DNA of 44,462 nucleotides from NCBI GenBank assembly GCA_050122795.1, contig JASFIG010000002.1, positions 1 to 44,462 of the forward strand, written 5' to 3'. Source of the DNA: Desulfobacterales bacterium. GTDB lineage: Bacteria; Desulfobacterota; Desulfobacteria; Desulfobacterales; JAHEIW01. This document shows, in pieces, positions 408 through 22,788 of the stretch (position 1 is its first letter; each line of letters begins with the position of its first letter). The translations under genes and the position numbers were made by a program. The notes beneath the pieces are model-generated. The model did not search any database and was not told the DNA's origin. It worked only from the letters and a program-made list of their open reading frames with translations.

Positions 408-902
408 ATGCCACCTGATGTTCGTCCCGAACACTCTGATATTACTGATGAAATGTGGTCCCACATTGATGCCATTATCACCAGCAACAGAGGTAAACCG
501 GGTTCGATTATAGGCGTTTTACGTGAATGTCAGGATATCGTCGGCTGGCTGCCGGTTGAATTGATAGATTACATCAGCGACGGGCTTAATCTTTCCCGCA
601 GTGAGGTTTTCGGTATCACCACCTTTTATTCTCTTTTTTCCCTGACGCCTAAAGGCCGACACCTGATCAAAGCATGCATGGGCACCGCCTGCTATGTGAA
701 AGGAATTAAGGAAGTGATGAGCCGGATCGGTAATGAATACCAGCTTAAAGAAGGCGGCACCACCGAAGATCGGCGTTTTTCGCTGGAAGCCGTGCGATGT
801 TTAGGCGCTTGCGGGCTGGCGCCGGTTGTAGTGGTTGATAAGGATACCTACGGTGATGTGAAAGCCGACAAAGTCTTAGAAGTGTTAAAAAAATACGATT
901 AA
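408..902 (+). CDS. NuoE/HoxE-like [2Fe-2S] thioredoxin-fold subunit of a soluble NADH-dependent oxidoreductase
   Basis: 164 aa. CMGTACYVKG ... RCLGACGLAPVVVV is the four-Cys pattern of the 24-kDa NuoE family. GAGGGAG SD lies 8 nt upstream of the ATG. Confidence 0.85.
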   Translation: MPPDVRPEHSDITDEMWSHIDAIITSNRGKPGSIIGVLRECQDIVGWLPVELIDYISDGLNLSRSEVFGITTFYSLFSLTPKGRHLIKACMGTACYVKGIKEVMSRIGNEYQLKEGGTTEDRRFSLEAVRCLGACGLAPVVVVDKDTYGDVKADKVLEVLKKYD

Positions 903-919
903 CCGGCAGTGTAGAGCTG

Positions 920-1273
920 ATGAAAATATCCGAAATTCAAAATATTCTGGATGCCACCATCCTGACGGGCAAAGACCAACTGGATCGCAACGTCGTCGGT
1001 GCGGGTGGCGCCGATTTAATGGCAGATGTATTATCAGCGGTTACCAAAGACGCGGCGCTGCTCACCGGCCTGACCACCGAGCAGGTTTTACGAACCGCCA
1101 AGATTGCCGAGGTAGCGGTCGTGGTCTTTGTCAGGGGTAAAAAACCCGACACACCGATCATCGAACTGGCCAAATTTTATGAGTTACCCGTTTTGTTGAC
1201 CAAATATTCCCTGTTTGTTGCCAGCGGCCGATTGTATGTCAACGGGCTACGGGGACTGGATGGTTCGTGGTAA
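920..1273 (+). CDS. DRTGG-domain protein
   Basis: 117 aa. VVGAGGADLMADVL ... LLTGLTTEQVLRTAKIAEVAVVVFVRGKKP resembles the small DRTGG modules often inserted between nuoE-like and nuoF-like genes of Hnd/Hyd-type clusters. Called from memory of the family, not searched. Confidence 0.55.
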   Translation: MKISEIQNILDATILTGKDQLDRNVVGAGGADLMADVLSAVTKDAALLTGLTTEQVLRTAKIAEVAVVVFVRGKKPDTPIIELAKFYELPVLLTKYSLFVASGRLYVNGLRGLDGSW

Positions 1274-1316
1274 GAAGGAGAATTGAGAATTCAATGATCA
1301 CTAGCGGGAGTCCGGC

Positions 1317-3104
1317 ATGAATAAAGTCAGATCTCAGTTGATGCTATGCGGCGGAACAGGCTGTCATGCCTATGAGAGTGGTGCTCTCCAGGCAGCACTC
1401 CAAAAAGAGCTGGAACGTCAGGGGCTTGCAGACGAAATTAAGATTATTGAGACCGGTTGCAATGGTTTTTGCGCGGTCGGACCGGTTATGCTGGTGCAGC
1501 CTGAAGGCATTTTCTACCAAAAATTGAAGATTAAAGATATTCCGCATCTGGTCGAAGAGCATTTTCTCAAAGGCCGGCCGGTCAAAAAGCTGTTTTATGT
1601 GGAACCCGCATCAAAAGAAACCATTCCCAGTATGAAGGAAATCCCTTTTTTTGAGCATCAGATGTTCTGGGCGATGCGCAACAAAGGCGCCATTGATCCG
1701 GAGGTCATCGACGAGTACATTGCCCGCGACGGCTATTTTGGTGCCGCAAAAGCGCTGCAGGAGATGCAGCGCGATGACATCATCGCCGAGGTAAAGAAAT
1801 CGGGTCTCAGGGGCCGCGGCGGAGCCGGTTTCCCCACCGGGCTCAAATGGGAGTTTGCCAGCAAAAGCGATAGCGATGTCAAATACGTGCTGTGCAATGC
1901 AGACGAAGGCGACCCGGGGGCGTTCATGGATCGCAGCATACTGGAATCCGATCCACATGCCGTGTTGGAAGGCATGCTGATTGCAGCCCGGGCGATCAAT
2001 GCGCATCAAGGGTACATCTACGCGCGTACGGAATATCCATTGGCCATCCGGCGGCTGGGTATTGCCATCGAGCAGGCCCGGGAATACGGATTGCTGGGCA
2101 CTGATATCCTGGGATCCGGTTTTGACTTCGACATCGAAATCTACCAGGGCGCCGGCGCCTTCGTCTGCGGCGAAGAAACCGCTCTGATGCGCTCAATCGA
2201 GGGCAAACGCGGGATGCCGCGACCCCGTCCGCCGTTTCCGGCGCTAAAAGGCCTATGGGAAAAGCCCACCATATTAAACAACGTTGAAACCCTGGCCAAT
2301 ATCGCGCAGATCATCATCAACGGCGGAGATTGGTATGCCAGTGTCGGCACGGAAAGCAGCAAGGGAACCAAGGTGTTTGCGCTCTCCGGCGATGTCAATA
2401 ACATCGGTCTGGTTGAAGTGCCCATGGGCACAACACTCAGGACAATGATTTATGATATCGGCGGCGGGGTGCCCGACAAGAAGAAATTTAAAGCCGTGCA
2501 GTTGGGCGGTCCCTCCGGCGGGTGCGTGCCCGAGCAATATCTGGATATCCCCATTGACTATGAGGAGATTGCCAAAGTCGGTGCTATTATGGGTTCGGGC
2601 GGTGCGATTGTAATGGATGAAAATACCTGTATGGTTGATATGGCGCGCTTTTTTATGGATTTCGTGCAGGATGAATCCTGTGGAAAATGCACCCCCTGTC
2701 GTGAAGGCACGCGGCGTTTATTGCAACTTCTGGAAAAAATCTGTGAAGGACACGGGGCCCCTGAGGATATCGCCACCATGGAGGAACTCTCCGACACGAT
2801 CAAAGAAGCGGCTCTTTGCGGTTTGGGTCAAACGGGACCCAATCCGGTTCTTTCGACATTGAGATATTTCAAAGATGAATACGAGGCGCATGTCCTTGAG
2901 AAACGATGTCCGGCCAAACGCTGTGTGGCGCTGTTGAAATTTGAGGTGCAACCGGAACTTTGCACCAAATGCGGCATGTGTTTTCGAGCTTGCCCGGTGG
3001 AAGCCATTGCCTGGAAAAAGAAAGAAGTTGCGATTATCGACAAGGAAAAATGCATCAAATGCATGACCTGCTATGATAAGTGCAAGTTTGATGCAATTGA
3101 TTAA
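1317..3104 (+). CDS. NuoF-like FMN/NAD(H)-binding flavoprotein subunit with N-terminal 2Fe-2S thioredoxin-like domain and C-terminal 2x[4Fe-4S] ferredoxin domain (HydB/HndC/StnB type)
   Basis: 595 aa. GLRGRGGAGFPTGLKW is the FMN site, ESCGKCTPCREG is the N3 cluster motif, and CTKCGMCFRACP plus CIKCMTCYDKC form the C-terminal dicluster. GGGAG SD. Confidence 0.9.
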   Translation: MNKVRSQLMLCGGTGCHAYESGALQAALQKELERQGLADEIKIIETGCNGFCAVGPVMLVQPEGIFYQKLKIKDIPHLVEEHFLKGRPVKKLFYVEPASKETIPSMKEIPFFEHQMFWAMRNKGAIDPEVIDEYIARDGYFGAAKALQEMQRDDIIAEVKKSGLRGRGGAGFPTGLKWEFASKSDSDVKYVLCNADEGDPGAFMDRSILESDPHAVLEGMLIAARAINAHQGYIYARTEYPLAIRRLGIAIEQAREYGLLGTDILGSGFDFDIEIYQGAGAFVCGEETALMRSIEGKRGMPRPRPPFPALKGLWEKPTILNNVETLANIAQIIINGGDWYASVGTESSKGTKVFALSGDVNNIGLVEVPMGTTLRTMIYDIGGGVPDKKKFKAVQLGGPSGGCVPEQYLDIPIDYEEIAKVGAIMGSGGAIVMDENTCMVDMARFFMDFVQDESCGKCTPCREGTRRLLQLLEKICEGHGAPEDIATMEELSDTIKEAALCGLGQTGPNPVLSTLRYFKDEYEAHVLEKRCPAKRCVALLKFEVQPELCTKCGMCFRACPVEAIAWKKKEVAIIDKEKCIKCMTCYDKCKFDAID

Positions 3105-3145
3105 TAAAATGAAAATGGATAAACAATAACTGGATAATGATTTCT

Positions 3146-3221
3146 ACCACGAAAGCCCGACAGATTAAAAACACGAAAAAATAAAAATTTTGTGCTTTTT
3201 CAAATTTCGTGTTTTCGTGAT
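3146..3221. repeat. imperfect inverted repeat built on the word CACGAAA / TTTCGTG (weak member of the heptamer-hairpin family)
   Basis: CACGAAA (3148-3154) and ACACGAAA (3171-3178) face TTTCGTGTTTTCGTG (3206-3220), between the nuoF-like and rnfB-like genes. Periodicity is less regular than at the other loci. Confidence 0.35.
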
Positions 3222-3287
3222 GAATAGAAAAGTTTCATACATTCGGCTCAAAACCAATTATTTCTAATTTGATCTGAGGTGTTTTAA

Positions 3288-5390
3288 ATGGTTGATGCAA
3301 TCATCTTAATGGGCGGTATGGGATTGGCCATCAGCATCATTTTAGCCATCGCATCCAAGGTTTTCTACGTCTATGTTGACCCCAAGATTTTGTCGATTGA
3401 AGAAGAATTGCCCGGTGCCAATTGAGGTGGTTGCGGGCTGCCGGGCTGCAGCGCGAACGCAGAGGCCATCGTTGCCGGCACAGCGGCACCCAATTCTTGT
3501 GTGGCCGCCGGTGAAGAAGTGGCCGAAGCCATTGCCGCTATTATGGGCGTTAAGATCGAAGCTGTTGAACCGGACATCGCCCTGCCGGGCTGTTATTTTG
3601 GGATCGAGGATGCGGATACGAAATATGTGTATAATGGTCTAGATGATTGCCGCGCAGTGGCATTGCTCGGCGGCGGCATGAAAGTGTGTACCATCGGCTG
3701 CCTGGGCCTGGGGACGTGTGTCAGGGCCTGTCCCTTTGATGCCATCCGCATGGGCCCCAAAGGCCTGCCGGTCGTTATCGAACAAAGATGCACTGGCTGC
3801 GGAACCTGCGAACGGGTGTGTCCCAAACACATAATTAACCTTTCATCCATTACGCGCAGGATTATCCGGGAATATACCATGGATGAATGCACGACACCCT
3901 GCCAGCGTGGGTGCCCGGCCGGCATTAATATTCGGGAATACATCCATCAAATTTCAATTGGCGATCATCACCGCGCCGTCCAGGTCATCAAAGAACGCAA
4001 TCCCTTTCCAGCTGTGATTGGCCGAATTTGTCCGCGGCCCTGTGAGCTGGAGTGCCGACGAAATTATATTGATGAGCCGGTGGCCATCAATTATCTAAAG
4101 CGATATGCAGCTGACTATGAAAAGCAAAGCGGCAAGCGCATCCTGCCATACAAGGCGCCGGATACCGGCCGTAAAATAGCGGTTGTCGGTGGCGGTGTGG
4201 AAGGATTGTCGGTTGCATTTTTTACAGCACGCCTTGGACACGATGCGACGGTATTTGAGGCCACCGCAAAACTGGGTGGGCTGCTCAGAAGCGCTATATC
4301 AAAAGATCGATTACCCGAGGAAATACTGGATTGGGATATTGAAGGCATTGTTGAAATGGGCGTTAACGTCGAAACCCAAAAGGCTTTAGGTCGTGATTTC
4401 TCTCTAAAGTCACTGATTCAAGAAGGGTATGACGCGGTCTTTTTAGCCGCCGGCGGCTGGGACAGCCGTCTGGCACGTGGGGCAACAGATGTTATTGAAT
4501 CGCCGATTCCGGGCACTTATATGCTGGTTGACCTGCTGCGATTTGGCGCCGAGCAGTCAGAGGCGCTCACAATTGATTCTGACGTTGTGATTGCCGGCGG
4601 GGGAAAATTGGCGCTTGATGCCGCTAAAGTTTGCAAGGAAAGGGGCGCAACGTGCGTCACCGTTTTATTTCGCGAGAGTTGGGAACACAGCCCCATTTCA
4701 GACGCAGAGTTGGAAAAACGCGGTATGACCGATCTTAACCTTATTTACAATTCGGCGATTCATCGCCTGATCGGAGAAGCTGACCAGCTCAAACAGGTTG
4801 AATATATTGAAGCCGACACCGCAGAAGTGACGCGTATAGCGGCTCAGACGTTGATATTTGCCGCCGGCCGGTTTCCCGAAATGGTTTTCACCCGGCCAAC
4901 ACCGGAGGGTGATGAAGCGCAAGAAACCGATACAGTCGAATTACTACCGGATGTGTCTTTACACTGGGAAGGGACCCAACCTTATAAACAACCCGCCCTT
5001 AAAGATGAGGTCGGTCTGTTTGCAGAAGGTGACGTGCTGGCGGATTATAGCGCTGCCATTAAGGCCATCGGTGCGGGCCGTCGGGCGGCTGCTTCAATTC
5101 ATCAGATCATGCACGGTTTACCCCCTCAACTGACAGAGCATGTGATCACGCCGCAATCAACCCTGCAAAATGTGCATCATGTTGAAAAGGTGCAGGCCAG
5201 CCAGCGCCAGATCATGCCCATTTGCAGCGGCAAAGAACTGGCTCAATGCGGTGAAATTGAAAGAGGCTTTTCGGCCAGTATGGCTCAGCAAGAAGCGGAT
5301 CGGTGTCTTCAGTGCGGGTTGATCTGCTATGTGCACACCCAAATGGAGCCGGTTGATGAAAAAGCGGAACCAACCGAAGCTTCCGGGTAA
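3288..5390 (+). CDS. membrane-anchored RnfB-like Fe-S domain / 2x[4Fe-4S] ferredoxin / GltD (NfnB, StnC)-like NAD(P)H-FAD oxidoreductase fusion; predicted selenoprotein (TGA 3423-3425 read as Sec)
   Basis: ATG 3288 with GAGGTG SD. Hand translation gives MVDAIILMGGMGLAISIILAIASKVFYVYVDPKILSIEEELPGAN-TGA-GGCGLPGCSANAEAIVAG...NSCVAAGEEV, in frame with tracked ORF 3501..5390. It aligns with the RnfB/RsxB N-terminus (TM helix, then LPxxxCGxCGxPGC...C), with TGA at the first Cys. Downstream motifs are CTGCGTCERVCP, then GltD-like CPxxC/CP..CE.EC and KIAVVGGGVEGL. Confidence 0.8.
3434..3455 (+). promoter_or_regulatory. candidate SECIS-like hairpin downstream of UGA 3423
   Basis: GCTGC (3437-3441) pairs with GCAGC (3448-3452) around loop CGGGCT. 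Two more G-C pairs lie outside a mismatch. The hairpin starts about 9 nt after the UGA. Hand-folded only. Confidence 0.4.
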
Positions 5391-5466
5391 CATTCCTTCA
5401 TTCGACGCGTGCATTATTCAGGTATGTAGGTAGCGTCGTGCAAGCCATTTATAAAATATGATAAAT

Positions 5467-5689
5467 GGTGTCAGGTGTCAGTGGTCTGGTTCAAGGGTTC
5501 AGCGTTCACGGTTCAAAGGTTAAAAAGATAGTGAAAAAAGGTTAGATGTCAGAATATAGAGCAACAGTTTTAAATTGGAAACTTTAACTGAAACTTCGGA
5601 ACCGAGAACCCCTGAACCCTGAACTTCTGAACCCAGAACCCTGAACATTGACGACAGAGACCAGCAGCGATATGCTGAACCTTTGAACC
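5467..5689. repeat. heptamer-word inverted repeat (GGTGTCA/GGTTCAN x8 versus NCTGAAC-type x11), long imperfect hairpin
   Basis: Left arm 5467-5521 reads GGTGTCA GGTGTCA GTGGTCT GGTTCAA GGGTTCA GCGTTCA CGGTTCA AAGGTT. Right arm 5589-5668 is period-7 ...CCCTGAA CCCTGAA CTTCTGA ACCCAGA ACCCTGA... A terminal AACCTTTGAACC (5678-5689) is the exact complement of 5510-5521. Tracked ORFs 5520..5705 and 5584..5796 merely read through it. Confidence 0.85.
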
Positions 5690-5707
5690 ACATGAGCGAG
5701 GTCATTA

Positions 5708-6151
5708 GTGGCTACCGAACAGGGCATCGTCCTGCGGACAGATTCTGAAGCTGCCTGGGTCAAGACAACCCGGAGCAGCGCCTGCCAGGGATGCACGGCA
5801 AGAAATTCGTGTCATACCCTCAACAACAGTCAGGACATGGAAGTCAAGGCGATAAACATCGCCGGTGCCAGAGAAGGGGACCGGATTGTTTTAAGTTTTG
5901 AAACCCGCTCTCTATTGAAAGCTACATTTTTAATCTATGTTTTTCCCATTATATTTCTGGTTGTCGGTGCCGTCTTCGGGCACATGCTGGCCCCACTCAT
6001 CTCGATTCATCCGTCGGCTCTGCCAGTCCTGCTGGGATTTTCCTTCTTTTTCGCTGCGCTGCGTGTCATGAAAGCCCGGGCGAATAAAATGGCCGCGCAA
6101 AATGCCTACCAGCCAAAGATCACAAAAATCTTGGGAAGCGCCAACCATTAG
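5708..6151 (+). CDS. rseC: RseC/MucC-family (SoxR-reducing / Rnf-associated) membrane protein
   Basis: 147 aa with GTG start. The N-terminal soluble part has SACQGCTARNSC, followed by two hydrophobic helices, which is the typical RseC layout. Confidence 0.7.
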   Translation: MATEQGIVLRTDSEAAWVKTTRSSACQGCTARNSCHTLNNSQDMEVKAINIAGAREGDRIVLSFETRSLLKATFLIYVFPIIFLVVGAVFGHMLAPLISIHPSALPVLLGFSFFFAALRVMKARANKMAAQNAYQPKITKILGSANH

Positions 6152-6296
6152 CAGGCTAAAGTCAAAATGATCTTTGGTGCGTTCATCTTGAAAATGTGGA
6201 GGTATTGAGTGCTGAAGTGTAAGCGTGGAGACTGTTGATGGACGGTTTAAACGCCAGAGAGAGGCCCGCGGACCCTCTTCGCAGATCGGATTCACA

Positions 6297-6563
6297 TTAA
6301 TCTTGTTTTCTGGGAAAAAGATCTTCGATTTCAAATTCCCTGATTTTTTGAAGGCAATTTTCCAGTGCCGTTTCCTCGGTTTCACCGGTGCCCTGGAATT
6401 CCTGCCTGGCGACGATGTTCACCAAATTGGGCACGGCCACAAACTTTCCTGCCAGGTTTCCCGCCTTGGTTTCGTGCACATCGATATACATGAGTCTCTC
6501 GTTGCGAATCAGATTATACCGGGTCGTCTTTGTCAAAATATCATTTTCCTTCAATGACTGCAT
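6297..6563 (-). CDS. hypothetical small protein (possible HicB/UPF0150-like fold)
   Basis: 88 aa. AAGAGGA SD lies 7 nt upstream, and the gene starts 17 nt downstream of clpS. GKFVAVPNL...QGTGETEETALENCLQKI loosely resembles the G-x-(V/A)-x-(V/I)-P...G-x-T-x-E-E-A-L-x-N pattern of UPF0150 proteins. Confidence 0.5.
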   Translation of the reverse strand: MQSLKENDILTKTTRYNLIRNERLMYIDVHETKAGNLAGKFVAVPNLVNIVARQEFQGTGETEETALENCLQKIREFEIEDLFPRKQD

Positions 6564-6580
6564 GATAAATTCCTCTTATT

Positions 6581-6895
6581 TCATTCTTTTTCCATGCTGG
6601 TTTTGAGTGGGAATCCGTTTTCGCGCGAAATCTTTGTGACAAGGTTTATTTTTGTTTCGGCCATCTCGTAAGGATAAACGCCGCATACGCCGACACCGGT
6701 TCGATGAACCTGCCACATTAGACCTGTGGCCTCATCGATGGACTTATTAAAAACAGCAATCAGAATTTCGACTACGAATGCTTTGGTTGTGTAATCATCG
6801 TTGTGGAGCAGCACCTTATACATCGGCGGTTCGGTTGTTTTTTCATCAATTTCATCCAGAATGTCATCTTGATAATCTGGCTGTTTGGTGCCCAT
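6581..6895 (-). CDS. clpS: ATP-dependent Clp protease adaptor ClpS
   Basis: PPMYKVLLHNDDYTTKAFVVEIL...ATGLMWQVHRTGVGVCGVY is the ClpS core. The start is moved to the internal ATG (MGTKQPDY) because GGAGGA lies 8 nt upstream of it. Confidence 0.85.
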   Translation of the reverse strand: MGTKQPDYQDDILDEIDEKTTEPPMYKVLLHNDDYTTKAFVVEILIAVFNKSIDEATGLMWQVHRTGVGVCGVYPYEMAETKINLVTKISRENGFPLKTSMEKE

Positions 6896-7054
6896 TTTGA
6901 TTGTCCTCCATGAGGCATAACGCATATTACTCGTAAAACGTAAGGGCTGGCAAAAAGAAATCAAGTTAGGGGCCTTAAATTGTCAGGATGTTTGTTGAGA
7001 TAAAGCGGCGGACAACCTTCAGATCAGCATCTGGCGTAGTTTTTGGAAGATGAC

Positions 7055-11621: not shown

Positions 11622-12620
11622 ATGGTTGAAAAAAAGAAAAGCACACAGAGAAGTCAGGTGGGATTTGGATCGACTTATAAAAAAGTTCGAGCCGGCAGCG
11701 GAGACTTTCGGCACGGAGTTGAATCTGTTCTCGGTGGCCAGGTATGGCTGGTAAAGCCGGATCAGAAAGCCAAGGCTGCCAATCCCTGTCTGTGGATGGA
11801 GGCCGGGGTCGTCAAGTTCAAAAACTGTGACAATTATTATGATTGCACCAGCTGTAAATACGATCATGCCATGGACAACAAAGTTGCCAAGGGCAAGCAA
11901 ATCAGCTGGCAGGAAGCCATGAAAAGACGACCGGACCTGGATCGGGTTTGCCGCCACAGCCTGACCAACCGCATCGAAAAGCGGATGTGTGCCTATGACT
12001 ATGAATGCGGCAAATGTGACTTCGACCAGTATTTTGAGGATATCTGGACCACCAAAACCAAAGCCATCCCCGGCGAGATGCAGCAGATAAAAGGTTTCGA
12101 TGTTCCCATGGGCTACTATTTCCATAATGGCCATGCCTGGGCTCGAATCGAAAGCGGCGGCTATATTCGCGTGGGTCTGGATGACTTTGCGCTAAAAGTG
12201 TTGGGCGAAGCCGATGCGCTTGATCTGCCATTGATCGGCAAAGAATTGGACCAGAGCAAAGCAGGCTGGGGGCTGAGGCGCAAGGATAACCTTGCAGACG
12301 TGCTGTCGCCTATAGATGGCGTTATCATGGAGGTCAATTCCAAGGTCAGGGAAAATCCCAAGCTGGCCAATCATGAGCCTTACGGCGACGGATGGTTGTT
12401 TATGGTACGCACCCCAGATGTCAAGCGCACCATGAAGCAGTTGATGGTCGATCAGGACAGTCTGAGCTGGATGAACACCGAAGTCGGTGAGCTGGAAGGT
12501 ATGATTGAAGAGGTGGCAGGTCCCTTGGCAGCTGATGGCGGTTATCTGGTGGATGACATTTACGGAAATTTGCCGGATCTGGGCTGGAACAATCTAACCC
12601 ACAAGTTCTTACGAACTTAG
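11622..12620 (+). CDS. Cys-rich protein with C-terminal glycine-cleavage-H (GcvH)-like fold, paralog 1
   Basis: 332 aa with AAGGAG SD. There are two copies of C-x12-C-x5-C-x2-C (CLWMEAGVVKFKNCDNYYDCTSC and CRHSLTNRIEKRMCAYDYECGKC). The GcvH-like core follows: GHAWARIESGGYIRVGLDDFA...SPIDGVIMEVN...EPYGDGWLFMV. Confidence 0.8.
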   Translation: MVEKKKSTQRSQVGFGSTYKKVRAGSGDFRHGVESVLGGQVWLVKPDQKAKAANPCLWMEAGVVKFKNCDNYYDCTSCKYDHAMDNKVAKGKQISWQEAMKRRPDLDRVCRHSLTNRIEKRMCAYDYECGKCDFDQYFEDIWTTKTKAIPGEMQQIKGFDVPMGYYFHNGHAWARIESGGYIRVGLDDFALKVLGEADALDLPLIGKELDQSKAGWGLRRKDNLADVLSPIDGVIMEVNSKVRENPKLANHEPYGDGWLFMVRTPDVKRTMKQLMVDQDSLSWMNTEVGELEGMIEEVAGPLAADGGYLVDDIYGNLPDLGWNNLTHKFLRT

Positions 12621-12709
12621 TTATCCGTTATCTGTTATTGGTTGTGGGTAAATAAATGACAGTTCATAGTGTCATCCCGAATAACCAATAACCACTAACC
12701 AATAACTAC
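12621..12709. repeat. heptamer-word inverted repeat (TTATCNG x4 versus CCAATAA x4) with a central 6-bp mini-hairpin
   Basis: Left arm is TTATCCG TTATCTG TTATTGG TTGTGGG (12621-12648). The centre holds ATGACA...TGTCAT. Right arm is CGAATAA CCAATAA CCACTAA CCAATAA (12678-12705). It fills the whole spacer between the two GcvH-like paralogs. Confidence 0.8.
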
Positions 12710-12733
12710 TTGTTTATGGCAAGGAGAATCATC

Positions 12734-13660
12734 ATGGCTCCGATCCGAATGGAAACTCAACAAACCGCCGACCACCCCCCATGCATTTGGTTGCAGGCGG
12801 GTGTTGTACCGCATAAGTTTTGCCGGCTGGAATACCAATGTGCTGCCTGTGCTTACGACCGGGCGATGCGCCGCACAGCTGCCGAAAACAAACAGATTCG
12901 AGACAAAGGCCGAATCCCCGAAGGCAAACGCGGCCGCATTGTTTTTTGGAAGGATAAATTACGTGAACTGCCGGCCTGGAAACAGCCCTGTCTACATCAC
13001 ATGATCGGCCATATTGAATTCCGCGCTTGCACTCATGACTACCAATGCGGCAATTGCGAATTCGATCAATATTTTAATGATCAGTTTGCCGTACATGCCG
13101 TCGTTAAACCGGTGAATGTACTAAACATAAAGGGATTTAAGATTCCACACGGATTCTACCTGCACCCGGGACACACCTGGGTAAAAATCGAAGAAGGGGC
13201 GACAGTGCGCGTCGGTCTGGACGATTTCGCCCTGCGCTTGCTGGGACCGCTGGATCAAATTGAAGCTCCCCTGATGGGTAAACAGCTGGAACAGGGGCGT
13301 CAGGACATCACGTTACGGCGGGCGGGAAACAATGCCAAATTGCTTTCTCCGGTCAGCGGAGTGGTCACCGATATTAATCCGGCGCTGCGCGAGCGCGGTA
13401 GCCGGAGCAGCGAAGATCCATATAGTAAGAGCTGGATTTTACGGCTGCACTGCAACAATCTACGCCAGGATCTCAAGAACCTGATGATCGGTAATCAAGC
13501 CGGCGAATATATTGATAAAGAGGTCAATCGCCTATACGAAGTCATTGAGGAGACAGCCGGTCCTCTTGCCGCTGACGGCGGTTACCTGGGTGAAGACATA
13601 TTCGGCAATTTGCCCCAGCTCGGCTGGCAAAAGCTGACCCGGGAATTTTTAAAAACCTAA
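12734..13660 (+). CDS. Cys-rich protein with C-terminal GcvH-like fold, paralog 2
   Basis: Start set at ATG 12734 (AAGGAGA SD 6 nt upstream) rather than TTG 12710. It has the same two C-x12-C-x5-C-x2-C modules and the same C-terminal AGPLAADGGYL..DI.GNLP.LGW tail as paralog 1. Confidence 0.8.
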   Translation: MAPIRMETQQTADHPPCIWLQAGVVPHKFCRLEYQCAACAYDRAMRRTAAENKQIRDKGRIPEGKRGRIVFWKDKLRELPAWKQPCLHHMIGHIEFRACTHDYQCGNCEFDQYFNDQFAVHAVVKPVNVLNIKGFKIPHGFYLHPGHTWVKIEEGATVRVGLDDFALRLLGPLDQIEAPLMGKQLEQGRQDITLRRAGNNAKLLSPVSGVVTDINPALRERGSRSSEDPYSKSWILRLHCNNLRQDLKNLMIGNQAGEYIDKEVNRLYEVIEETAGPLAADGGYLGEDIFGNLPQLGWQKLTREFLKT

Positions 13661-17699: not shown

Positions 17700-20600
17700 A
17701 TGACGGATAAAGTTCAAGGATCTGTAATGGTTGTTGGCGGTGGAATTGCCGGGATGCAGGCCTCATTGGATCTGGCCAATTCCGGCTACCTGGTTCATCT
17801 GGTTGAACGCTCATCTGCCATCGGCGGATTGATGTCTCAGCTCGACAAGACCTTTCCCACTAACGACTGTGCGATGTGAATTATTTCACCCAAACTGGTC
17901 GAGGTCGGCCGGCATCTGAACATAGAGCTTTTAACCAATACTGAACTTCTAAACCTTGAAGGCGAGCCCGGTCATTTCAAGGCCCGGGTACGTCAAAACC
18001 CGCGCTACATTGATCTTGACAAGTGCACCAGCTGTGGTGAGTGCACCACGGTCTGTCCGGTGGATCTTCCCAGCGAATACGACGAAGGTCTGTGTGCCAA
18101 AAAAGCCACCTTCAAACAATATGCCCAGGCAATTCCCGGTGCATATGCCATCCAGAAAGCCGATAAAGCTCCCTGTCGCCTGGCCTGTCCGGGTGGACTT
18201 AATGTACAGGGCTACGTGCAGATGGTCAAAGAGGGCAAGTATAAAGAAGCCCTGGAGATCATCATGGAAGATCTGCCCTTGCCCGGCGTGCTGGGCCGCA
18301 TATGCCCCCACGGGTGTGAGGATGCCTGCCGTCGCTGCGAGGTTGAATCACCTGTGGCCATTCGGGATTTGAAACGCCTGGCGGCCGATAAATTTGATCC
18401 CCGGCAGGTGGAAATTAAATGTGATCCCCCAAAAAAAGAAAAAGTGGCCATTATCGGCTCCGGACCGGCCGGACTTTCCTGTGCCTATCATTTGGCCAAA
18501 AAGGGCATATTATCCACTATTTTTGAGTCCCTGCCGGAAGCGGGCGGAATGCTCAGGGTTGGTATCCCGGCCCACCGTCTGCCCCGCGAAATTCTGGACC
18601 AAGAAATAGAAATTATTACCAATCTGGGGGTTGATATCAAGACGAATACAGCTCTGGGCGAAGATGTCTCCATCGATGGCCTGCTCGAAGACGGATACAA
18701 AGCCGTTTATCTGGCCATCGGCGCCCATCAGGGTATTGAATTGGGGATCCCCGGTGAAAAGGCCAATGGTGTGCGCCAGGGGGTCGAATTTCTGCGGGAG
18801 GCGAACCTGACCGGCAGGACCGATGTCGGCAACAATGTGGCCATCATCGGTGGCGGCAATGTGGCCATTGATGTGGCCCGTTCGGCCGTGCGGCTGGGCG
18901 CCGAGACGGTCAACATTGTTTACCGGCGCACCCGCAATGAAATGCCAGCCTGGGAGGAAGAAATCCAGGCGGCCGAAGATGAAGGCGTTCAAATTACCTA
19001 TCTGTCCGCTCCCCAGGAAGTTTTAACCCGTGACGGTCGGGTGGTAGGGCTTCGCTGTATTCGCATGGAGCTCAGCGAGCCCGATTCTTCAGGACGCAAG
19101 CGACCCATTCCGATTCCCGGAAGCGAATATGAAATCGAAATCGATCAGCTGGTTCCGGCCATCGGGCAACGCCCCGATTTATCCGCCCTGGAGGATATTA
19201 CCGGACTTACCTATACCCGCTGGGGGACGACTGAAGTCGACGCGGTCACCTATGCTACCGAGCGTGACGGGGTGTTTGCCGGCGGGGACCTGCAGACCGG
19301 GCCCTGGGTAGCCATCGGTGCCATCGGCGCCGGCAAAGAAGCGGCCGAATCCATTCTGCGCTATATCGAAGGCAATGATATGGCCGAGGGCCGCGAGCCG
19401 GTTGTCAACGAAAATCCGGTCTATCGGCCCATTCCGGAAGATGAGCCCGTAATGGAGCGGGCCAAGATGCCCGAGCTGCCTATCAGCAAGCGTCAGGGCA
19501 ACTTCAATGAAGTCGAACTCGGGTACACCGAAGAAGAAGGTCGGGCTGAGGCGGCGCGCTGCCTGAACTGCGGCTATTGCTGTGAGTGCTATCAGTGCGT
19601 AGACGCCTGCCTGGCCCACGCCGTTGATCACAGTCAGCAGGCCGAAATGAAAGAAATCGAAGTCGGCTCGGTCATCCTGACGGCCGGCTGCCAGCCCTAT
19701 GATCCCGCTCACCTGGAAAACGTTTATCACTACAAAACCAGCCCCAATGTATTGACCAGCCTGGAGTTCGAGCGCATTCTGTCGGCATCCGGGCCCACCA
19801 TGGGACATCTGCAGCGTCCCTCGGACGGCAAGGAGCCTAAACGGATTGCCTGGCTGCAATGTGTCGGTTCCAGAGACAGCAACCAGTGCGGCAACAGCTA
19901 CTGCTCGTCGGTTTGCTGCATGTATGCCATCAAGGATTCCATGATTGCCAAAGAGCATTCGGAAGAGGAGCTGGATTGTGTCGTGTTCAATATGGATATC
20001 CGGACCTTTGGCAAAGACTACGAAAAATATTACAATCGCGCCAAAGATGCCGGCATCCGCTTTGTCAAATCGAAAATCCATTCGATCGATGAAATTCGCG
20101 AAACCGGCAATTTGAACTTACGCTACATGGATGATGCCGGCCACCTGCAGGAAGAGGATTTTGACATGGTGGTGCTGTCGGTGGGATTGCAGGTACCGGA
20201 ATCGACGGTTCAGCTGGCCGAACGGCTGGGGATCGAATTGGATGATTCACGCTTTGCAGTGACACATCCGTTTGCGCCCGTTCAGACCTCACGTCCCGGC
20301 GTTTATGCCTGCGGCACATTTCAGGAGCCCAAGGACATTCCCAGCTCGGTGACCGAAGCCAGCGCGGCTGCATGTGCTGCCGGCGCCAGCCTGAACTCAG
20401 CGCGCAACACACTGACCCGCAGCGTGGAGATCCCGGAAGAAATCGACGTCAGTGATGAGGAAGCCCGGGTGGGGGTGTTTGTCTGTAACTGCGGCGTAAA
20501 TATCTCCAGTGTGGTTGATGTTAAAGGGGTGACCGAATATGCCAAGACCTTGCCCAATGTGGTTCATGCCCAGGAAAACCTGTTTACCTGTTCGCAGGAT

Positions 20601-22130
20601 TCCCTGGTTCAGATGAAAGAAGTCATTAAAGAGCACAAGCTCAACCGGGTGGTGGTGGCGGCTTGCACCCCTAAGACGCATGAGCCCATTTTCCAGGACA
20701 CTATGGAATCCTGCGGATTGAACAAATACCTGTTTGAAATGGCCAATATCCGCAACCAGGATTCCTGGGTGCACTCTGAAGCTGCGAAAACCGCTACTGA
20801 TAAAGCCAGTGACCTGGTACGAATGTCCGTGGCCCGGGCAACGACACTGCACCCGTTGCAGGAAAAGAAAATCCCGGTGATCCAGAAAGGCCTGGTGATC
20901 GGCGGCGGTATTTCCGGTTTGAATGCCGCTCTGGGCCTGGCCGATCAGGGCTATGAGGTGGTTCTGATCGAAAAGGAGGCCGAACTGGGCGGGTTGGCGA
21001 ATCGCTTGACGGCAACCATCGAGGGCGCCGATATCGCAAAGTATCTCGGCGATCTGATTTCCCGTGTGACCGCGCATGAAAAGATCGAGGTGATCACCAA
21101 CGCGCTGGTGGTGGGTTATTCCGGCTTTAAAGGCAACTTTACCACCGAAATCATGGTGGGGCCGGATATGGAGCAGCGCAAAATAGAACACGGGGTGGTT
21201 ATTCTGGCCACCGGGGCCCACGAATACAAGCCCAAAGAATACCTGTACGGGGACGACCCGCGGGTAATGACCCAGCTTGAGCTGGCCGATCGGATGAAAA
21301 AAGGCGAACTCGATGCGCCTCAGCAGGTGGTTATGATTCAGTGCATCGGATCGCGCAACGAGGAGAATCCAAACTGCTCCCGGGTCTGCTGCCAGACGGC
21401 TGTAAAAAATGCGTTACACATCAAGGAAAAATATCCGGATGCCGAGGTATTTGTTCTTAACCGCGATATCCGGACATACGGACTTCTGGAAGATTACTAT
21501 ACCGAGGCCCGGCGTCAGGGCGTCTTCTTTTTTCGGTTTGATCCCGAAGACCCACCGGTGGCCGAGGCTGCCGAAGACGGCATCGAGGTCATCTTTACCG
21601 ACCACGTGCTCAATCGCAAGCTGAGCGTCAGCACGGATTTACTGGTTCTCAGTGCCGGCATGGAAGCCGCGGATACCGAGGAGCTGTCTTCTATTGTCAA
21701 ACTGGCGCGCACGGCGGAAGGCTATTTCATGGAAGCGCACGTGAAATTACGGCCGGTGGATATGGCGACTGAAGGGATTTTTGTGTGCGGCACAGCCCAC
21801 AGCCCCAAGCTGATCTCGGAAAGCATCGCCCAGGCCTATGCGGCTGCGTCGCGGGCGGTGACATTCCTGGCTCAGGACCATTTGACGCTCTCTGCGGTCA
21901 CCGCGCAGGTTGAAGCCGACAAATGCGCCTCCTGTTTGATCTGTGTCCGCTCCTGTCCGTACGATGTGCCCAAGATCAATGCAGATGGTGTCAGTGAAAT
22001 CGATGAGGCCCTCTGCCATGGTTGTGGCATCTGTACCGCGGAATGTCCGGCCAAAGCCATCCAGCTAAACTGGTACGAGGACGATCAGATCATCTGCAAG
22101 GTGGATGCGCTCTTGGAGGGTGTACTATAG
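17700..22130 (+). CDS. hdrA: giant HdrA-like flavoprotein fusion (HdrA N-terminus with Sec, inserted GltD/NfnB-like NAD(P)H module, HdrA core, second HdrA-like module, C-terminal 2x[4Fe-4S]); predicted selenoprotein
   Basis: ATG 17700 (AAGGAG SD). Hand translation gives MTDKVQGSVMVVGGGIAGMQASLDLANSGYLVHLVERSSAIGGLMSQLDKTFPTNDCAM-TGA-IISPKLVE...CTSCGECTTVCP, in frame with tracked ORF 18060..22130. TGA 17877-17879 sits where HdrA has the Cys of DKTFPTNDCxMC. Later motifs: KVAIIGSGPAGL and VAIIGGGNVAID (GltD-like), VGSRD...CSSVCCMYAIK, VGVFVCNCGVNIS, GLVIGGGISGLNAAL, IGSRN...CSRVCCQTA, and CASCLICVRSCP plus CHGCGICTAECP. Confidence 0.85.
17895..17912 (+). promoter_or_regulatory. candidate SECIS-like hairpin downstream of UGA 17877
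   Basis: CTGGTC (17895-17900) pairs with GGCCGG (17907-17912), a 6-bp stem including two G-U pairs, around loop GAGGTC. It starts 16 nt after the UGA. Hand-folded and weak. Confidence 0.3.
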
Positions 22131-22356: not shown

Positions 22357-22788
22357 ATGGCTGAGAACTTTGAACCAATCATTATTGCCTTTTGCTGCAA
22401 TTTCTGAGGGTACACGGCGGCGGACCTGGCAGGTTCGATGCGGTTGCAATACCCGACCAATGTAAGGATCGTTCGGGTGCCGTGCACGGGAAAAGTCGAT
22501 GTGATTCATGTCATGCGGGCATTTGAAAAAGGTGCCGACGGCGTGGCCGTCATAGGATGCCTCGAAGGAGAGTGCCATTTTAATGCCGGCAACATGATGG
22601 CCCGCAGACGGGTGGAGCAGGCACAGAAAATACTGGATACAGTCGGCATTGGTGGCGATCGGGCCCAGATGTATAACCTGTCATCCAGTGAAGGCCCGCG
22701 GTTTGCGCAGTATGCCACAGAGATGACCCAAAAAATAAAAGAATTGGGCCCCAATCCGATCCGGGTTGCTAAAAACAAGGCGGCCTGA
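22357..22788 (+). CDS. mvhD: MvhD/VhuD-like [2Fe-2S] electron-transfer subunit; predicted selenoprotein
   Basis: ATG 22357 (GGAGGA SD). MAENFEPIIIAFCCNF-TGA-GYTAADLAGSMRLQYP runs in frame with tracked ORF 22438..22788. TGA 22405-22407 replaces the third Cys of the MvhD motif FCCNWC.Y.GAD.AG. Confidence 0.85.
22421..22437 (+). promoter_or_regulatory. candidate SECIS-like hairpin downstream of UGA 22405
   Basis: CGGACCT - GGC - AGGTTCG forms a 7-bp stem (one G-U) with a G-containing triloop, starting 14 nt after the UGA stop-like codon. Hand-folded. Confidence 0.4.

What the first reader, a model, noticed from the sequence alone, without database searches (positions are those of the whole stretch)
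3423..3455. In-frame UGA at the first Cys of the RnfB-type Fe-S motif: predicted selenocysteine cluster ligand
Reading from ATG 3288 gives a TM helix followed by LPGAN-UGA-GGCGLPGCSANAEAIVAG...NSCVAAG.

This aligns residue-for-residue with the RnfB/RsxB N-terminal motif LPxxxC-G-x-C-G-x-P-G-C...C-A-P-G-G, which binds a [4Fe-4S] cluster. The UGA falls on the first Cys.

The frame continues uninterrupted into the tracked ORF 3501..5390. A GC-rich hairpin (3434-3455) follows the UGA at SECIS-like distance.

Two other genes in the window show the same Cys-to-UGA pattern, so the organism clearly decodes Sec.

Sec in HdrA and MvhD/VhuD is known. I cannot say from memory whether a Sec form of the RnfB Fe-S domain has been described. 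A Sec residue at a putative Fe-S ligand position would be mechanistically unusual.
Basis: partly seen in the sequence, partly recalled or inferred. Interest (0 to 1): 0.7.

Follow-up and report, generated by a model that had tools for sequence, protein, structure and literature searches.

The report
Selenocysteine in RnfB-type iron-sulfur domain
A real selenocysteine codon replaces the first cysteine of the iron-sulfur cluster motif in a membrane-anchored RnfB-like redox protein of an uncultured sulfate-reducer relative. Selenocysteine at this position is already catalogued for ordinary RnfB, so this is a new, routinely mis-annotated member of a known kind.

Summary
ATG 3288 opens a 700-residue frame interrupted only by UGA 3423-3425. 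That codon falls on the first Cys of the RnfB/PF04060 motif C-x2-C-x4-C-x16-C, and the hairpin 3434-3455 follows it.

Reading the UGA as Sec is strongly supported:
- Close orthologues carry either TGA or TGC at this codon.
- The peptide is conserved on both sides of it.
- In 76 distinct TGA sequences, the synonymous sites inside the hairpin are almost frozen.
- A separate class of short RnfB genes in rnfCDGEAB operons has a different stem but the same geometry.
- HdrL (17877) and MvhD (22405) in the window also carry Cys-position UGAs.

The protein is not a canonical RnfB. It is an RnfB N-terminal module fused to an NfnA/GltD-type flavoprotein. It sits in a conserved NuoE-(DRTGG)-NuoF-X-RseC operon that resembles Bfu-type NfnABC.

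Novelty is limited. [quoted passage not shown] Its representative WP_258165141.1 has Sec at the same motif position. I found no report of the fusion as a selenoprotein, and about 117 of its 120 closest database entries are truncated at the UGA. That Sec ligates the cluster is inferred, not shown.

The parts
3275..3280 (+). Shine-Dalgarno-like GAGGTG upstream of the ATG at 3288
   Evidence: Read directly from the sequence.
3288..5390 (+). Complete selenoprotein CDS: 700 residues plus stop, with Sec at residue 46. Domains are a TM helix, the FdI [4Fe-4S] domain, a 2x[4Fe-4S] ferredoxin domain and an NfnA/GltD-type flavoprotein.
   Evidence: Translation, Pfam and NCBIfam, PDB matches.
3288..3422 (+). 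N-terminal 45 codons, including the RnfB-type membrane anchor (roughly residues 3-26). Gene callers lose this segment because they stop at the UGA.
   Evidence: It aligns with the N-terminus and TM helix of RnfB in 7zc6_B, 9eri_B and 8ahx_B. Across 70 orthologues, first and second codon positions are conserved while third positions vary.
3423..3425 (+). UGA selenocysteine codon (residue 46), at the first Cys of the motif C-x2-C-x4-C-x16-C
   Evidence: TGA in L001-L005, L007 and 83 metagenome loci. TGC in L006, L008-L011 and L013, and Cys in P0002-P0004.
3434..3455 (+). bSECIS hairpin. The core stem is 3437-3441 paired with 3448-3452. The apical loop is 3442-3447 (CGGGCU). The outer pairs are 3434-3455 and 3435-3454.
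   Evidence: Folds at -12.3 kcal/mol. Third-codon positions inside it have entropy 0-0.68 bit, against a mean of 1.41 bit elsewhere in the gene. The short RnfB class has a different stem with the same geometry.
3408..3503 (+). PF04060 'FeS' (FdI) domain, residues 41-72. The ligand positions are U46, C49 (3432-3434), C54 (3447-3449) and C71 (3498-3500).
   Evidence: Pfam PF04060 2.1e-11 over profile positions 1-32. The motif matches the CxxCx4Cx17C described for RnfB FdI and the corrinoid Fe-S protein.
3696..3839 (+). 2x[4Fe-4S] ferredoxin domain (residues 137-184), equivalent to RnfB FdII
   Evidence: Pfam Fer4_7 and Fer4_21. Aligned to 7zc6_B and 9eri_B.
3882..5330 (+). NfnA/GltD-type NAD(P)H-FAD flavoprotein with Fer4_20 clusters (residues 199-681)
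   Evidence: NF009410 2.4e-96, plus Fer4_20 and Pyr_redox_2. Matches 9n5u_A 'NfnA' at 1.8e-72 and NfnI 5jca_L at 1e-42.
408..902 (+). NuoE/HydC-type [2Fe-2S] subunit, a conserved operon partner
   Evidence: PF01257 3.7e-46. Synteny is conserved across the loci.
920..1273 (+). DRTGG-domain gene between NuoE and NuoF, not present at this position in every locus
   Evidence: PF07085 1.4e-08. Present or absent across loci.
1317..3104 (+). NuoF/HydB-type FMN-NADH subunit of the Bfu 'B' type, a conserved operon partner
   Evidence: Matches 7t2r_B at 4e-256, 7q4v_B at 1e-247 and 9n5u_B 'NfnB' at 2e-209. Synteny conserved.
5708..6151 (+). RseC/MucC-family membrane protein, a conserved downstream partner
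   Evidence: PF04246 2.7e-31. Found downstream in nearly all loci, including the distant Cys forms.

Best explanation
Window 3288-5390 is a single selenoprotein gene.

Decoding (inferred from the sequence evidence): when the ribosome reaches UGA 3423, a SelB-type factor bound to the hairpin at 3434-3455 delivers Sec-tRNA(Sec). The hairpin's G-rich apical loop lies 17-22 nt after the codon. Residue 46 therefore becomes selenocysteine.

Position in the protein (shown by alignment): residue 46 is the first of the four ligand positions (U46, C49, C54, C71) of the small, flexibly tethered [4Fe-4S] 'FdI' domain. In Rnf complexes this domain follows the membrane anchor and passes electrons between the ferredoxin-like clusters and the membrane [2Fe-2S] centre. 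By homology, Sec most likely supplies a selenolate ligand to that cluster. This step is inferred, not shown.

The enzyme (shown at sequence level): here the RnfB module is fused to an NfnA/GltD-type NAD(P)H flavoprotein. The gene lies in a conserved operon with NuoE- and NuoF-type (Bfu 'C' and 'B') subunits and with RseC. The likely product is a membrane-anchored NfnABC/Stn-like NAD(P)H/ferredoxin oxidoreductase. The complex, its partners and its activity are all inferred.
For: Sec/Cys pairing:
- Among species-representative genomes, six loci have TGA and six have TGC at the same codon, within an otherwise conserved peptide.
- The full-length database homologues P0002-P0004 read LPGAN-C-GGCG.
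- Solved RnfB chains 7zc6_B, 9eri_B and 8ahx_B have Cys at the aligned residue.

Translation through the UGA:
- Across 70-76 distinct TGA sequences, codons on both sides show near-zero entropy at positions 1 and 2 and high entropy at position 3.

SECIS:
- Codons +4 to +9 (GGG CUG CCG GGU UGC AGC) have third-position entropies of about 0.19, 0, 0, 0.6-0.7, 0 and 0.19 bit.
- The mean for 91 conserved 4/6-fold codons elsewhere in the gene is 1.41 bit, and only 1 of the 91 falls below 0.2.
- All 76 sequences fold into the same hairpin, at -9.9 to -13.7 kcal/mol.
- The short RnfB Sec class uses the stem GAUUCGC/GCGAAUC with loop CGGGU at the same distance.

Sec use by the organism:
- HdrA-type and MvhD-type UGAs lie in the same window, each followed by a hairpin with GG in its loop.
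- TGA ends 3 of 25 ordinary genes, so the codon is not reassigned.

Precedent:
- WP_258165141.1 is a catalogued selenoprotein of NF005503 with U at the same motif position.
- A short Sec-type RnfB lies in an rnfC-D-G-E-A-B operon in L084.

Role of the domain:
- FdI carries the CxxCx4Cx17C motif assigned to a [4Fe-4S] cluster, and it is the mobile electron shuttle to RnfA/E.

Operon:
- NuoE-(DRTGG)-NuoF-X-RseC is conserved in about 80 loci.
- The subunits match Bfu-type enzymes and NfnABC.
Against: - No Sec machinery (selA, selB, selC, selD) can be checked, because only the window is available. It holds no tRNA gene.
- No Rfam family matches the hairpin.
- The single-sequence fold is not better than shuffles.
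- Part of the hairpin follows from the coding sequence G-L-P-G-C-S. Two Cys forms, L006 and L009, keep it.
- The FdI cluster is poorly resolved in every Rnf structure so far, so even the Cys ligation rests largely on modelling and on the corrinoid Fe-S protein homologue.
- No rnfCDGEA genes are adjacent, so the membrane partner is unknown.
- There is no protein-level evidence for Se incorporation.
Confidence: 0.85

Rival explanations
1. Sec is inserted at residue 46 but does not ligate an Fe-S cluster. In this fusion, the U-x-x-C pair would act as a redox-active selenosulfide, a thiol-oxidoreductase-like switch, or would bind another metal.
For: UxxC is the commonest redox motif among selenoproteins, and most selenoprotein families are thiol-oxidoreductase-like. 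The FdI cluster has not been clearly resolved in any Rnf structure.
Against: All three other ligand positions (C49, C54, C71) are invariant in the 70-76 Sec forms. The domain matches PF04060 end to end. Cys homologues keep the complete four-Cys motif, which is assigned to a [4Fe-4S] cluster in RnfB and in the corrinoid Fe-S protein.
Confidence: 0.1
2. The TGA is a true stop. Either the locus encodes a 45-residue membrane peptide plus a separate 629-residue protein starting at GTG 3501, or it is a pseudogene or a sequencing error.
For: Public gene callers annotate it this way: about 117 of the 120 closest database proteins are 606-643 residues long and lack PF04060. UGA does terminate some genes in this window.
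Against: - The 25 codons between the TGA and GTG 3501 encode three of the four cluster ligands. They are under purifying selection in frame.
- The TGA is conserved in more than 80 independent contigs, which rules out a sequencing error or a recent pseudogene.
- Cys orthologues are continuous through this codon.
- A product starting at 3501 would lack both the anchor and the FdI cluster motif.
Confidence: 0.03
3. The UGA is read through without selenium, for example by near-cognate Cys or Trp insertion, so the product is a Cys- or Trp-containing protein.
For: Low-level UGA read-through is known in bacteria (my own knowledge). The Sec machinery was not seen in the window.
Against: The hairpin is constrained at synonymous sites, sits at a distance I recall as SECIS-like and carries GG in its loop. 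Two genes of classic selenoprotein families in the window have the same arrangement. The Sec form is catalogued for the related NF005503 family.
Confidence: 0.02

Closest known systems
[quoted passage not shown]
   Same: Sec lies at the same position: the first Cys of the PF04060 motif. Compare LAGAQ-U-GGCGFAGC with LPGAN-U-GGCGLPGC. The two share an RnfB-type TM helix, FdI and ferredoxin domains, at 35% identity over the shared module.
   Different: The catalogued protein is a short RnfB of about 290 residues that scores 462 bits on NF005503. The window protein scores 179 bits against a cut-off of 252, carries an extra NfnA/GltD flavoprotein of about 500 residues, and is not in an rnf operon.
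RnfB subunit of the Rnf complex (solved: 7zc6_B C. tetanomorphum, 9eri_B 'Na(+)-translocating ferredoxin:NAD(+) oxidoreductase complex subunit B', 8ahx_B 'Ion-translocating oxidoreductase complex subunit B')
   Same: Residues 1-195 align end to end, at 3e-54 and 9e-51 for the first two. The TM anchor, the FdI motif and FdII are all shared. The protein passes the TIGR01944 rnfB subfamily cut-off, 90.5 against 68.7 bits.
   Different: The solved proteins have Cys, not Sec. They end in further ferredoxin domains rather than a flavoprotein. They are encoded in rnfCDGEAB operons.
'Desulfobacula toluolica Tol2-type' large RnfB of about 700 aa with NAD-binding sites (Rnf2 of D. multivorans and Db. 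autotrophicum)
   Same: Same overall architecture: an RnfB module plus an NAD(P)-binding flavoprotein, about 700 residues. The Cys-type relatives L008 (Desulfococcus MAG), L009, L011 and L013 are 49-59% identical.
   Different: It is described as part of an rnf gene cluster and is not listed among the selenoproteins of those genomes. The window gene lies behind NuoE/NuoF genes and has Sec.
Bfu-type three-subunit NfnABC (PDB 9n5u) and related HydABC-type electron-bifurcating enzymes
   Same: The upstream NuoF-like protein matches the B subunits nearly full length (7t2r_B 4e-256; 9n5u_B 2e-209). A NuoE/HydC-like C subunit is present. The flavoprotein half matches NfnA 9n5u_A at 1.8e-72.
   Different: Here the region ahead of the GltD-type domain in the A subunit is an RnfB-type membrane anchor with a mobile FdI domain containing Sec. 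RseC is co-encoded. The activity is untested.
Sec at Fe-S-associated Cys positions in HdrA and MvhD/VhuD (FrhD family)
   Same: These are also energy-metabolism Fe-S proteins of anaerobes with Sec replacing a Cys next to or at a cluster. Both occur in this same window.
   Different: They are unrelated folds and motifs (DCxxU; CCNxU).

Membership tests
Bacterial selenoprotein gene (UGA-Sec with bSECIS) | In-frame UGA aligned with Cys in homologues, with the flanks conserved | tested here: met
   TGA and TGC alternate at the same codon in 12 genome loci. Cys is present in P0002-P0004 and in the PDB RnfB chains.
Bacterial selenoprotein gene (UGA-Sec with bSECIS) | Stem-loop just downstream of the UGA with G in the apical loop, conserved beyond what the coding sequence requires | tested here: met
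   Hairpin 3434-3455 with loop CGGGCU. Synonymous sites in the stem and loop are frozen in 76 sequences (entropy 0-0.68 bit against a mean of 1.41). The short class has an alternative stem with the same geometry. No Rfam model matched the hairpin.
Bacterial selenoprotein gene (UGA-Sec with bSECIS) | Genome encodes selA, selB, selC (tRNA-Sec) and selD | not testable with these tools
   Only the 44-kb window is available and it holds no tRNA. Indirect support: HdrA-type and MvhD-type UGA genes lie in the window.
Bacterial selenoprotein gene (UGA-Sec with bSECIS) | Selenium shown in the protein | not testable with these tools
   Needs 75Se labelling or mass spectrometry.
RnfB (Rnf complex subunit B) | N-terminal TM helix, PF04060 [4Fe-4S] domain and 2x[4Fe-4S] ferredoxin domain | tested here: met
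   PF04060 2.1e-11 and Fer4 domains. TIGR01944 scores 90.5 against a cut-off of 68.7. 7zc6_B matches at 3e-54.
RnfB (Rnf complex subunit B) | Scores above the equivalog cut-off of an RnfB model (NF005503, NF041836 or NF003475) | tested here: not met
   NF005503 179 against 252; NF041836 165 against 445; NF003475 82 against 203.
RnfB (Rnf complex subunit B) | Encoded with rnfC, D, G, E and A | tested here: not met
   The neighbours are NuoE, DRTGG, NuoF and RseC. No rnf genes occur in the window, and this synteny is conserved in about 80 loci. By contrast, the short Sec class in L084 is in rnfC-D-G-E-A-B.
[quoted passage not shown] | Sec at the first Cys of the FdI motif (U-x-x-C) | tested here: met
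   Window residue 46 aligns with the U of WP_258165141.1.
[quoted passage not shown] | Membership of NF005503 by its curated cut-off | tested here: not met
   The window protein scores 179 bits, below 252. WP_258165141.1 scores 462, and the short metagenomic Sec forms score 309-314.
Bfu-type NfnABC / Stn-like transhydrogenase | Co-encoded NuoF/HydB-type B subunit and NuoE/HydC-type C subunit | tested here: met
Bfu-type NfnABC / Stn-like transhydrogenase | A subunit with a GltD/NfnB-type FAD-NAD(P)H domain and its two [4Fe-4S] clusters | tested here: met
   Fer4_20 and Pyr_redox_2. 9n5u_A matches at 1.8e-72.
Bfu-type NfnABC / Stn-like transhydrogenase | Electron-bifurcating NADH/ferredoxin:NADP+ activity of the complex | not testable with these tools
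   Needs biochemistry.

The most novel reading that the evidence does not exclude
In a widespread clade of uncultured sediment Desulfobacterales, the normal form of this enzyme may be a previously undescribed membrane-anchored Bfu-type NfnABC-like complex. Its only link to the membrane would be an RnfB-style mobile [4Fe-4S] shuttle domain ligated by selenolate. Selenium would then tune the potential or kinetics of the cluster that hands electrons to a membrane partner, either the RnfA/E core or RseC. If so, this would be a naturally abundant Sec-ligated [4Fe-4S] cluster open to biochemical study, and NAD(P)H/ferredoxin bifurcation would be wired directly into ion translocation.
Probability: 0.25. 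Interest if true: 0.65.

Novelty: new member of a known kind. Interest (0 to 1): 0.4.

Why it matters
**Annotation.** About 117 of the 120 closest public entries for this protein start after the UGA. They therefore lack the membrane anchor and the first Fe-S domain, and a membrane-tethered enzyme is read as a soluble "FAD-dependent oxidoreductase" or "4Fe-4S binding protein". This affects metabolic reconstructions of abundant sediment sulfate-reducer relatives.

**Biochemistry.** The Sec falls on the cluster of the RnfB domain that is least well resolved in every Rnf structure and is thought to be the mobile electron shuttle. A natural Sec/Cys pair at a [4Fe-4S] ligand gives a built-in 77Se spectroscopic probe. 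It also allows a test of what selenium does for an electron-transfer cluster. TGA and TGC orthologues are only about 14% diverged, and one TGC form (L006) still carries the hairpin.

**Limit.** The phenomenon itself is already catalogued for ordinary RnfB, so this is an extension rather than a discovery.

Tried and rejected
- Rfam, at gathering thresholds on the whole window and at permissive E-values on 3380-3520: no SECIS or other relevant family matched.
- Folding 3423-3480 alone: no better than shuffles (z = +1.43), so I dropped single-sequence folding as evidence and used comparative data instead.
- tRNA scan: no tRNA-Sec in the window.
- Literature:
  - The reviews cite Zhang & Gladyshev 2008 (GOS) for the catalogued family, but its main text has no such entry.
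  - The Olavius symbiont selenoproteome, the Db. autotrophicum HRM2 list of 31 selenoproteins and the D. multivorans list of five do not include RnfB or the fusion.
  - Peng et al. 2016 list RnfC, not RnfB.
  - Haft & Tolstoy 2025 is not held in the library.
- The listing of cluster members does not accept a sequence containing U, so I could not check whether any public record carries the full-length Sec form of the fusion.
- Codon reassignment: rejected, because TGA ends 3 of 25 genes.
- Membership of an rnf operon: rejected from the conserved synteny.
- The genome and metagenome scans were each capped at one.
Full report

Yes. From ATG 3288, which is preceded by GAGGTG at 3275-3280, the frame reads MVDAIILMGGMGLAISIILAIASKVFYVYVDPKILSIEEELPGAN, then TGA (3423-3425), then GGCGLPGCSANAEAIVAGTAAPNSCVAAG. 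It runs uninterrupted to TAA 5388-5390, 701 codons in all. The ORF 3501-5390 is simply the part of this frame that an ORF finder keeps after the TGA.

The core stem pairs 3437-3441 with 3448-3452. The loop is 3442-3447, CGGGCU. Two outer pairs flank a G/G mismatch. The 27-nt segment folds at -12.3 kcal/mol. On its own this is not remarkable: the 58-nt fold has z = +1.43 against shuffles.

The "two other genes" also exist. UGA 17877 lies in an HdrL-like protein (FPTNDCAM-U-IISPK). UGA 22405 lies in an MvhD/FlpD protein (AFCCNF-U-GYTAADLAG; PF02662 4e-51).

**2. What is the protein?**

With the UGA read as Cys, Pfam finds PF04060 "FeS" at residues 41-72, a 2x[4Fe-4S] ferredoxin domain at 137-184, and Fer4_20 plus Pyr_redox_2 from about residue 200 to 680.

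NCBIfam gives RnfB models over residues 1-190/260 and GltD/NfnB-like models over 199-681. TIGR01944 (rnfB subfamily) is passed, at 90.5 against 68.7 bits. The equivalog NF005503 is not, at 179 against 252 bits.

Residues 1-195 align end to end with solved RnfB subunits: 7zc6_B at 3e-54, 9eri_B at 9e-51 and 8ahx_B at 3e-20. Each of these has Cys at the residue aligned to the UGA. The motif is U46-x2-C49-x4-C54-x16-C71.

Vitt et al. 2022 describe this "FdI" segment of RnfB (CxxCx4Cx17C). They place it as a mobile domain between the TM anchor and the ferredoxin domains and predict that it holds a [4Fe-4S] cluster, by analogy with the corrinoid Fe-S protein. A 2025 review states that it carries one [4Fe-4S] cluster, that it passes electrons to the [2Fe-2S] centre of RnfA/E, and that it is poorly resolved in all structures.

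The C-terminal half best matches "NfnA" of 9n5u (1.8e-72) and NfnI (5jca_L, 1e-42).

The gene upstream (1317-3104) is a near full-length match to the B subunits of Bfu-type bifurcating enzymes: 7t2r_B at 4e-256, HydB 7q4v_B, and 9n5u_B "NfnB" at 2e-209. Upstream of that lie a NuoE/HydC-type gene and a DRTGG gene. Downstream lies RseC.

This order, NuoE-(DRTGG)-NuoF-X-RseC-orf-...-Tag, is conserved in essentially all of the roughly 80 related loci. No rnfCDGEA genes are adjacent. The protein is therefore an RnfB-module/NfnA fusion within an NfnABC-like operon, not a canonical RnfB.

A "large RnfB of about 700 aa with NAD-binding sites" has been described for D. toluolica Tol2, D. multivorans and Db. 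autotrophicum as part of an rnf2 cluster. More distant Cys-type relatives (L008, L009, L011, L013; 49-59% identity) lack the NuoE/F neighbours.

**3. Is the UGA decoded as Sec?**

Five lines of evidence say yes.

(a) Sec/Cys pairing. Among GTDB species representatives, L001-L005 and L007 (85-93% identical) have TGA. L006 (86%), L008-L011 and L013 have TGC at the same codon. The three full-length database homologues read LPGAN-C-GGCG.

(b) Translation through the codon. Eighty-three carry the fusion, 76 of them distinct at the nucleotide level. In these, first and second codon positions are essentially invariant on both sides of the UGA, while third positions vary. That is the signature of one translated frame.

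(c) An RNA constraint on top of the coding constraint. Codons +4 to +9 (GGG CUG CCG GGU UGC AGC) have third-position entropies of about 0.19, 0, 0, 0.6-0.7, 0 and 0.19 bit. Leu is always CUG, Pro always CCG and Ser always AGY. By comparison, 91 equally conserved 4/6-fold codons elsewhere in the gene average 1.41 bit, and only one of them is below 0.2. The frozen bases are the stem pairs G15-C30 and G18-C27 and the loop bases G21 and U24, counting the U of UGA as position 1. All 76 sequences fold into the same hairpin.

(d) Independent confirmation of the structure. A second class of hits is short RnfB proteins of about 305 residues (...VKVDPKIEAVRACLPGAN-U-GACGFAGCESYAEAV...). They have a different stem, GAUUCGC/GCGAAUC, with loop C/A-GGGU ending at the same position. 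Relative to the fusion class, three stem pairs are changed on both sides. From my own recollection of the E. coli fdhF SECIS, whose SelB-contacting G23 and U24 sit in the apical loop, the GGU at positions 22-24 here has canonical geometry. That comparison was not tested.

(e) Organism context. The HdrL and MvhD UGAs in the window are each followed by a hairpin with GG in the loop. TGA also terminates 3 of 25 ordinary genes, so the codon has not been reassigned.

Most distant Cys forms break the hairpin (CTG becomes TAT or TTT; AGC becomes GCG or TCT). L006 keeps it intact, so it differs from the Sec form here by a single TGA/TGC base and still carries what looks like a fossil SECIS. L009 keeps it as well.

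Not available: the Sec machinery itself (no tRNA in the window), any Rfam match and any protein-level data.

**4. How it most likely works**

Shown at the sequence level: one gene; a Cys/UGA pair at FdI ligand position 1; a constrained hairpin; conserved Bfu-type operon partners.

Inferred:
- A SelB-type factor bound to the hairpin inserts Sec.
- Sec46 supplies a selenolate ligand to the FdI [4Fe-4S] cluster.
- The TM helix tethers an NfnABC/Stn-like NAD(P)H/ferredoxin oxidoreductase to the membrane.
- The mobile Sec-ligated cluster relays electrons between the soluble cluster chain and an unidentified membrane partner, either an Rnf core encoded elsewhere or RseC.

Rivals:
- Sec forms a U-x-x-C selenosulfide or other non-cluster site (about 0.1).
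- The TGA is a true stop, or the gene is split or a pseudogene (about 0.03). The conserved in-frame ligand codons and more than 80 independent contigs argue against this.
- Read-through occurs without selenium (about 0.02).

**5. Comparison with what is known**

It has, as a bioinformatic prediction.

- The deep-Sep supplement prints WP_258165141.1, which reads ...LAGAQ-U-GGCGFAGCEAYAEAVV...C.
- That U aligns with window residue 46, at 35% identity over the RnfB module.
- The protein scores 462 bits on NF005503.
- The short metagenomic Sec forms also pass NF005503, at 309-314 bits. In L084 the gene sits in an rnfC-D-G-E-A-B operon.

So Sec at this ligand position occurs in canonical-type RnfB genes and is already catalogued.

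What I did not find in the literature I could search is the RnfB-NfnA/GltD fusion as a selenoprotein. It is absent from the selenoprotein lists for HRM2, D. multivorans and the Olavius symbiont. Peng et al. 2016 list RnfC only.

In the fusion clade the Sec form dominates. About 117 of the 120 closest protein clusters (at least 79% identity) are called at 606-643 residues without PF04060, under names such as "FAD-dependent oxidoreductase" or "4Fe-4S binding protein". Several appear to come from the same contigs as TGA loci, judging by matching contig lengths: 71,694 bp for L003 and 27,463 bp for L036.

In the short RnfB family the reverse holds. Most homologues are full-length Cys forms, for example from Desulfomonile, and only a minority are truncated.

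**6. Verdict**

Novelty: a new member of a known kind. A known Sec/Cys site appears in a new fusion protein and a new operon context. The fusion is dominant in an uncultured Desulfobacterales clade and is systematically mis-annotated.

Interest is moderate, at 0.4. The Sec-at-Fe-S-ligand idea is not new and remains untested. The system does offer a natural and abundant Sec/Cys pair on the least understood cluster of the Rnf-type electron input module.

Noticed in passing
window 17700-22130 (UGA at 17877-17879): An HdrL-like giant flavoprotein (HdrA/GltD-type, about 1,477 residues) has an in-frame UGA in the classic HdrA context FPTNDCAM-U-IISPK. A hairpin follows at about 17897-17910 with loop AGGU. 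ORF finders start the gene at 18060 and lose the N-terminus.
   Followed up: partly
window 22357-22788 (UGA at 22405-22407): An MvhD/FlpD gene (PF02662 4e-51) directly downstream of HdrL has an in-frame UGA at AFCCNF-U-GYTAADLAG. A strong hairpin follows, with loop GGC. MetV/MetF (MTHFR) genes come next, which is a typical HdrL-MvhD-MetVF arrangement.
   Followed up: partly
window 3147-3219: The NuoF-X intergenic region holds four copies of the heptamer CACGAAA/TTTCGTG, two on each strand, forming nested imperfect inverted repeats. A cluster with copies on both strands occurs about 72-140 nt before the start codon in 7 of the 80 loci with enough upstream sequence. Background is 0.05 per 300 nt. 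It could be a lineage-specific regulator site or a small repeat element.
   Followed up: partly
L084 about 900-6970 (minus strand); also L023, L032, L038, L041, L068: Short RnfB genes (about 305 residues, NF005503 at 309-314 bits) carry UGA at the same Fe-S ligand position. In L084 the gene lies in an rnfC-D-G-E-A-B operon. The closest Cys homologues are annotated as Desulfomonile or Desulfomonilaceae.
   Followed up: yes
L006 6136-6170: A Cys-form orthologue (TGC, 86% identical) keeps the complete SECIS hairpin sequence. It differs from the Sec form here by a single TGA/TGC base and appears to carry a fossil SECIS.
   Followed up: partly
L014, L018, L025, L035, L046, L049, L054, L056, L057, L072, L085, L087, L088, L094, L097, L123, L130: The metagenome pattern scan also hit a recurrent unrelated sequence in peat and soil contigs that translates as FHERIHAGFDPQxPPGAN*GGCGLFGK. 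It has short open frames on both sides and is probably an out-of-frame match within some conserved gene. It is not related to RnfB.
   Followed up: no
window 920-1273 and the loci: The DRTGG-domain gene between NuoE and NuoF is present in the window's close relatives. In many other Sec-form loci it is missing from that position, or a weaker copy (about 50% identity) lies elsewhere on the opposite strand.
   Followed up: no
L008 659-1660 (minus strand): A group II intron-type reverse transcriptase/maturase lies about 1.8 kb upstream of the Cys-type large RnfB in an uncultured Desulfococcus MAG. No rnf genes are adjacent there either.
   Followed up: no
window 11622-13660: Two tandem paralogous genes (332 and 316 residues) each carry a C-terminal GcvH (glycine-cleavage H protein) domain after an N-terminal extension of about 150 residues with no Pfam match. 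They lie next to a sigma-54 two-component system and the HdrL cluster.
   Followed up: no
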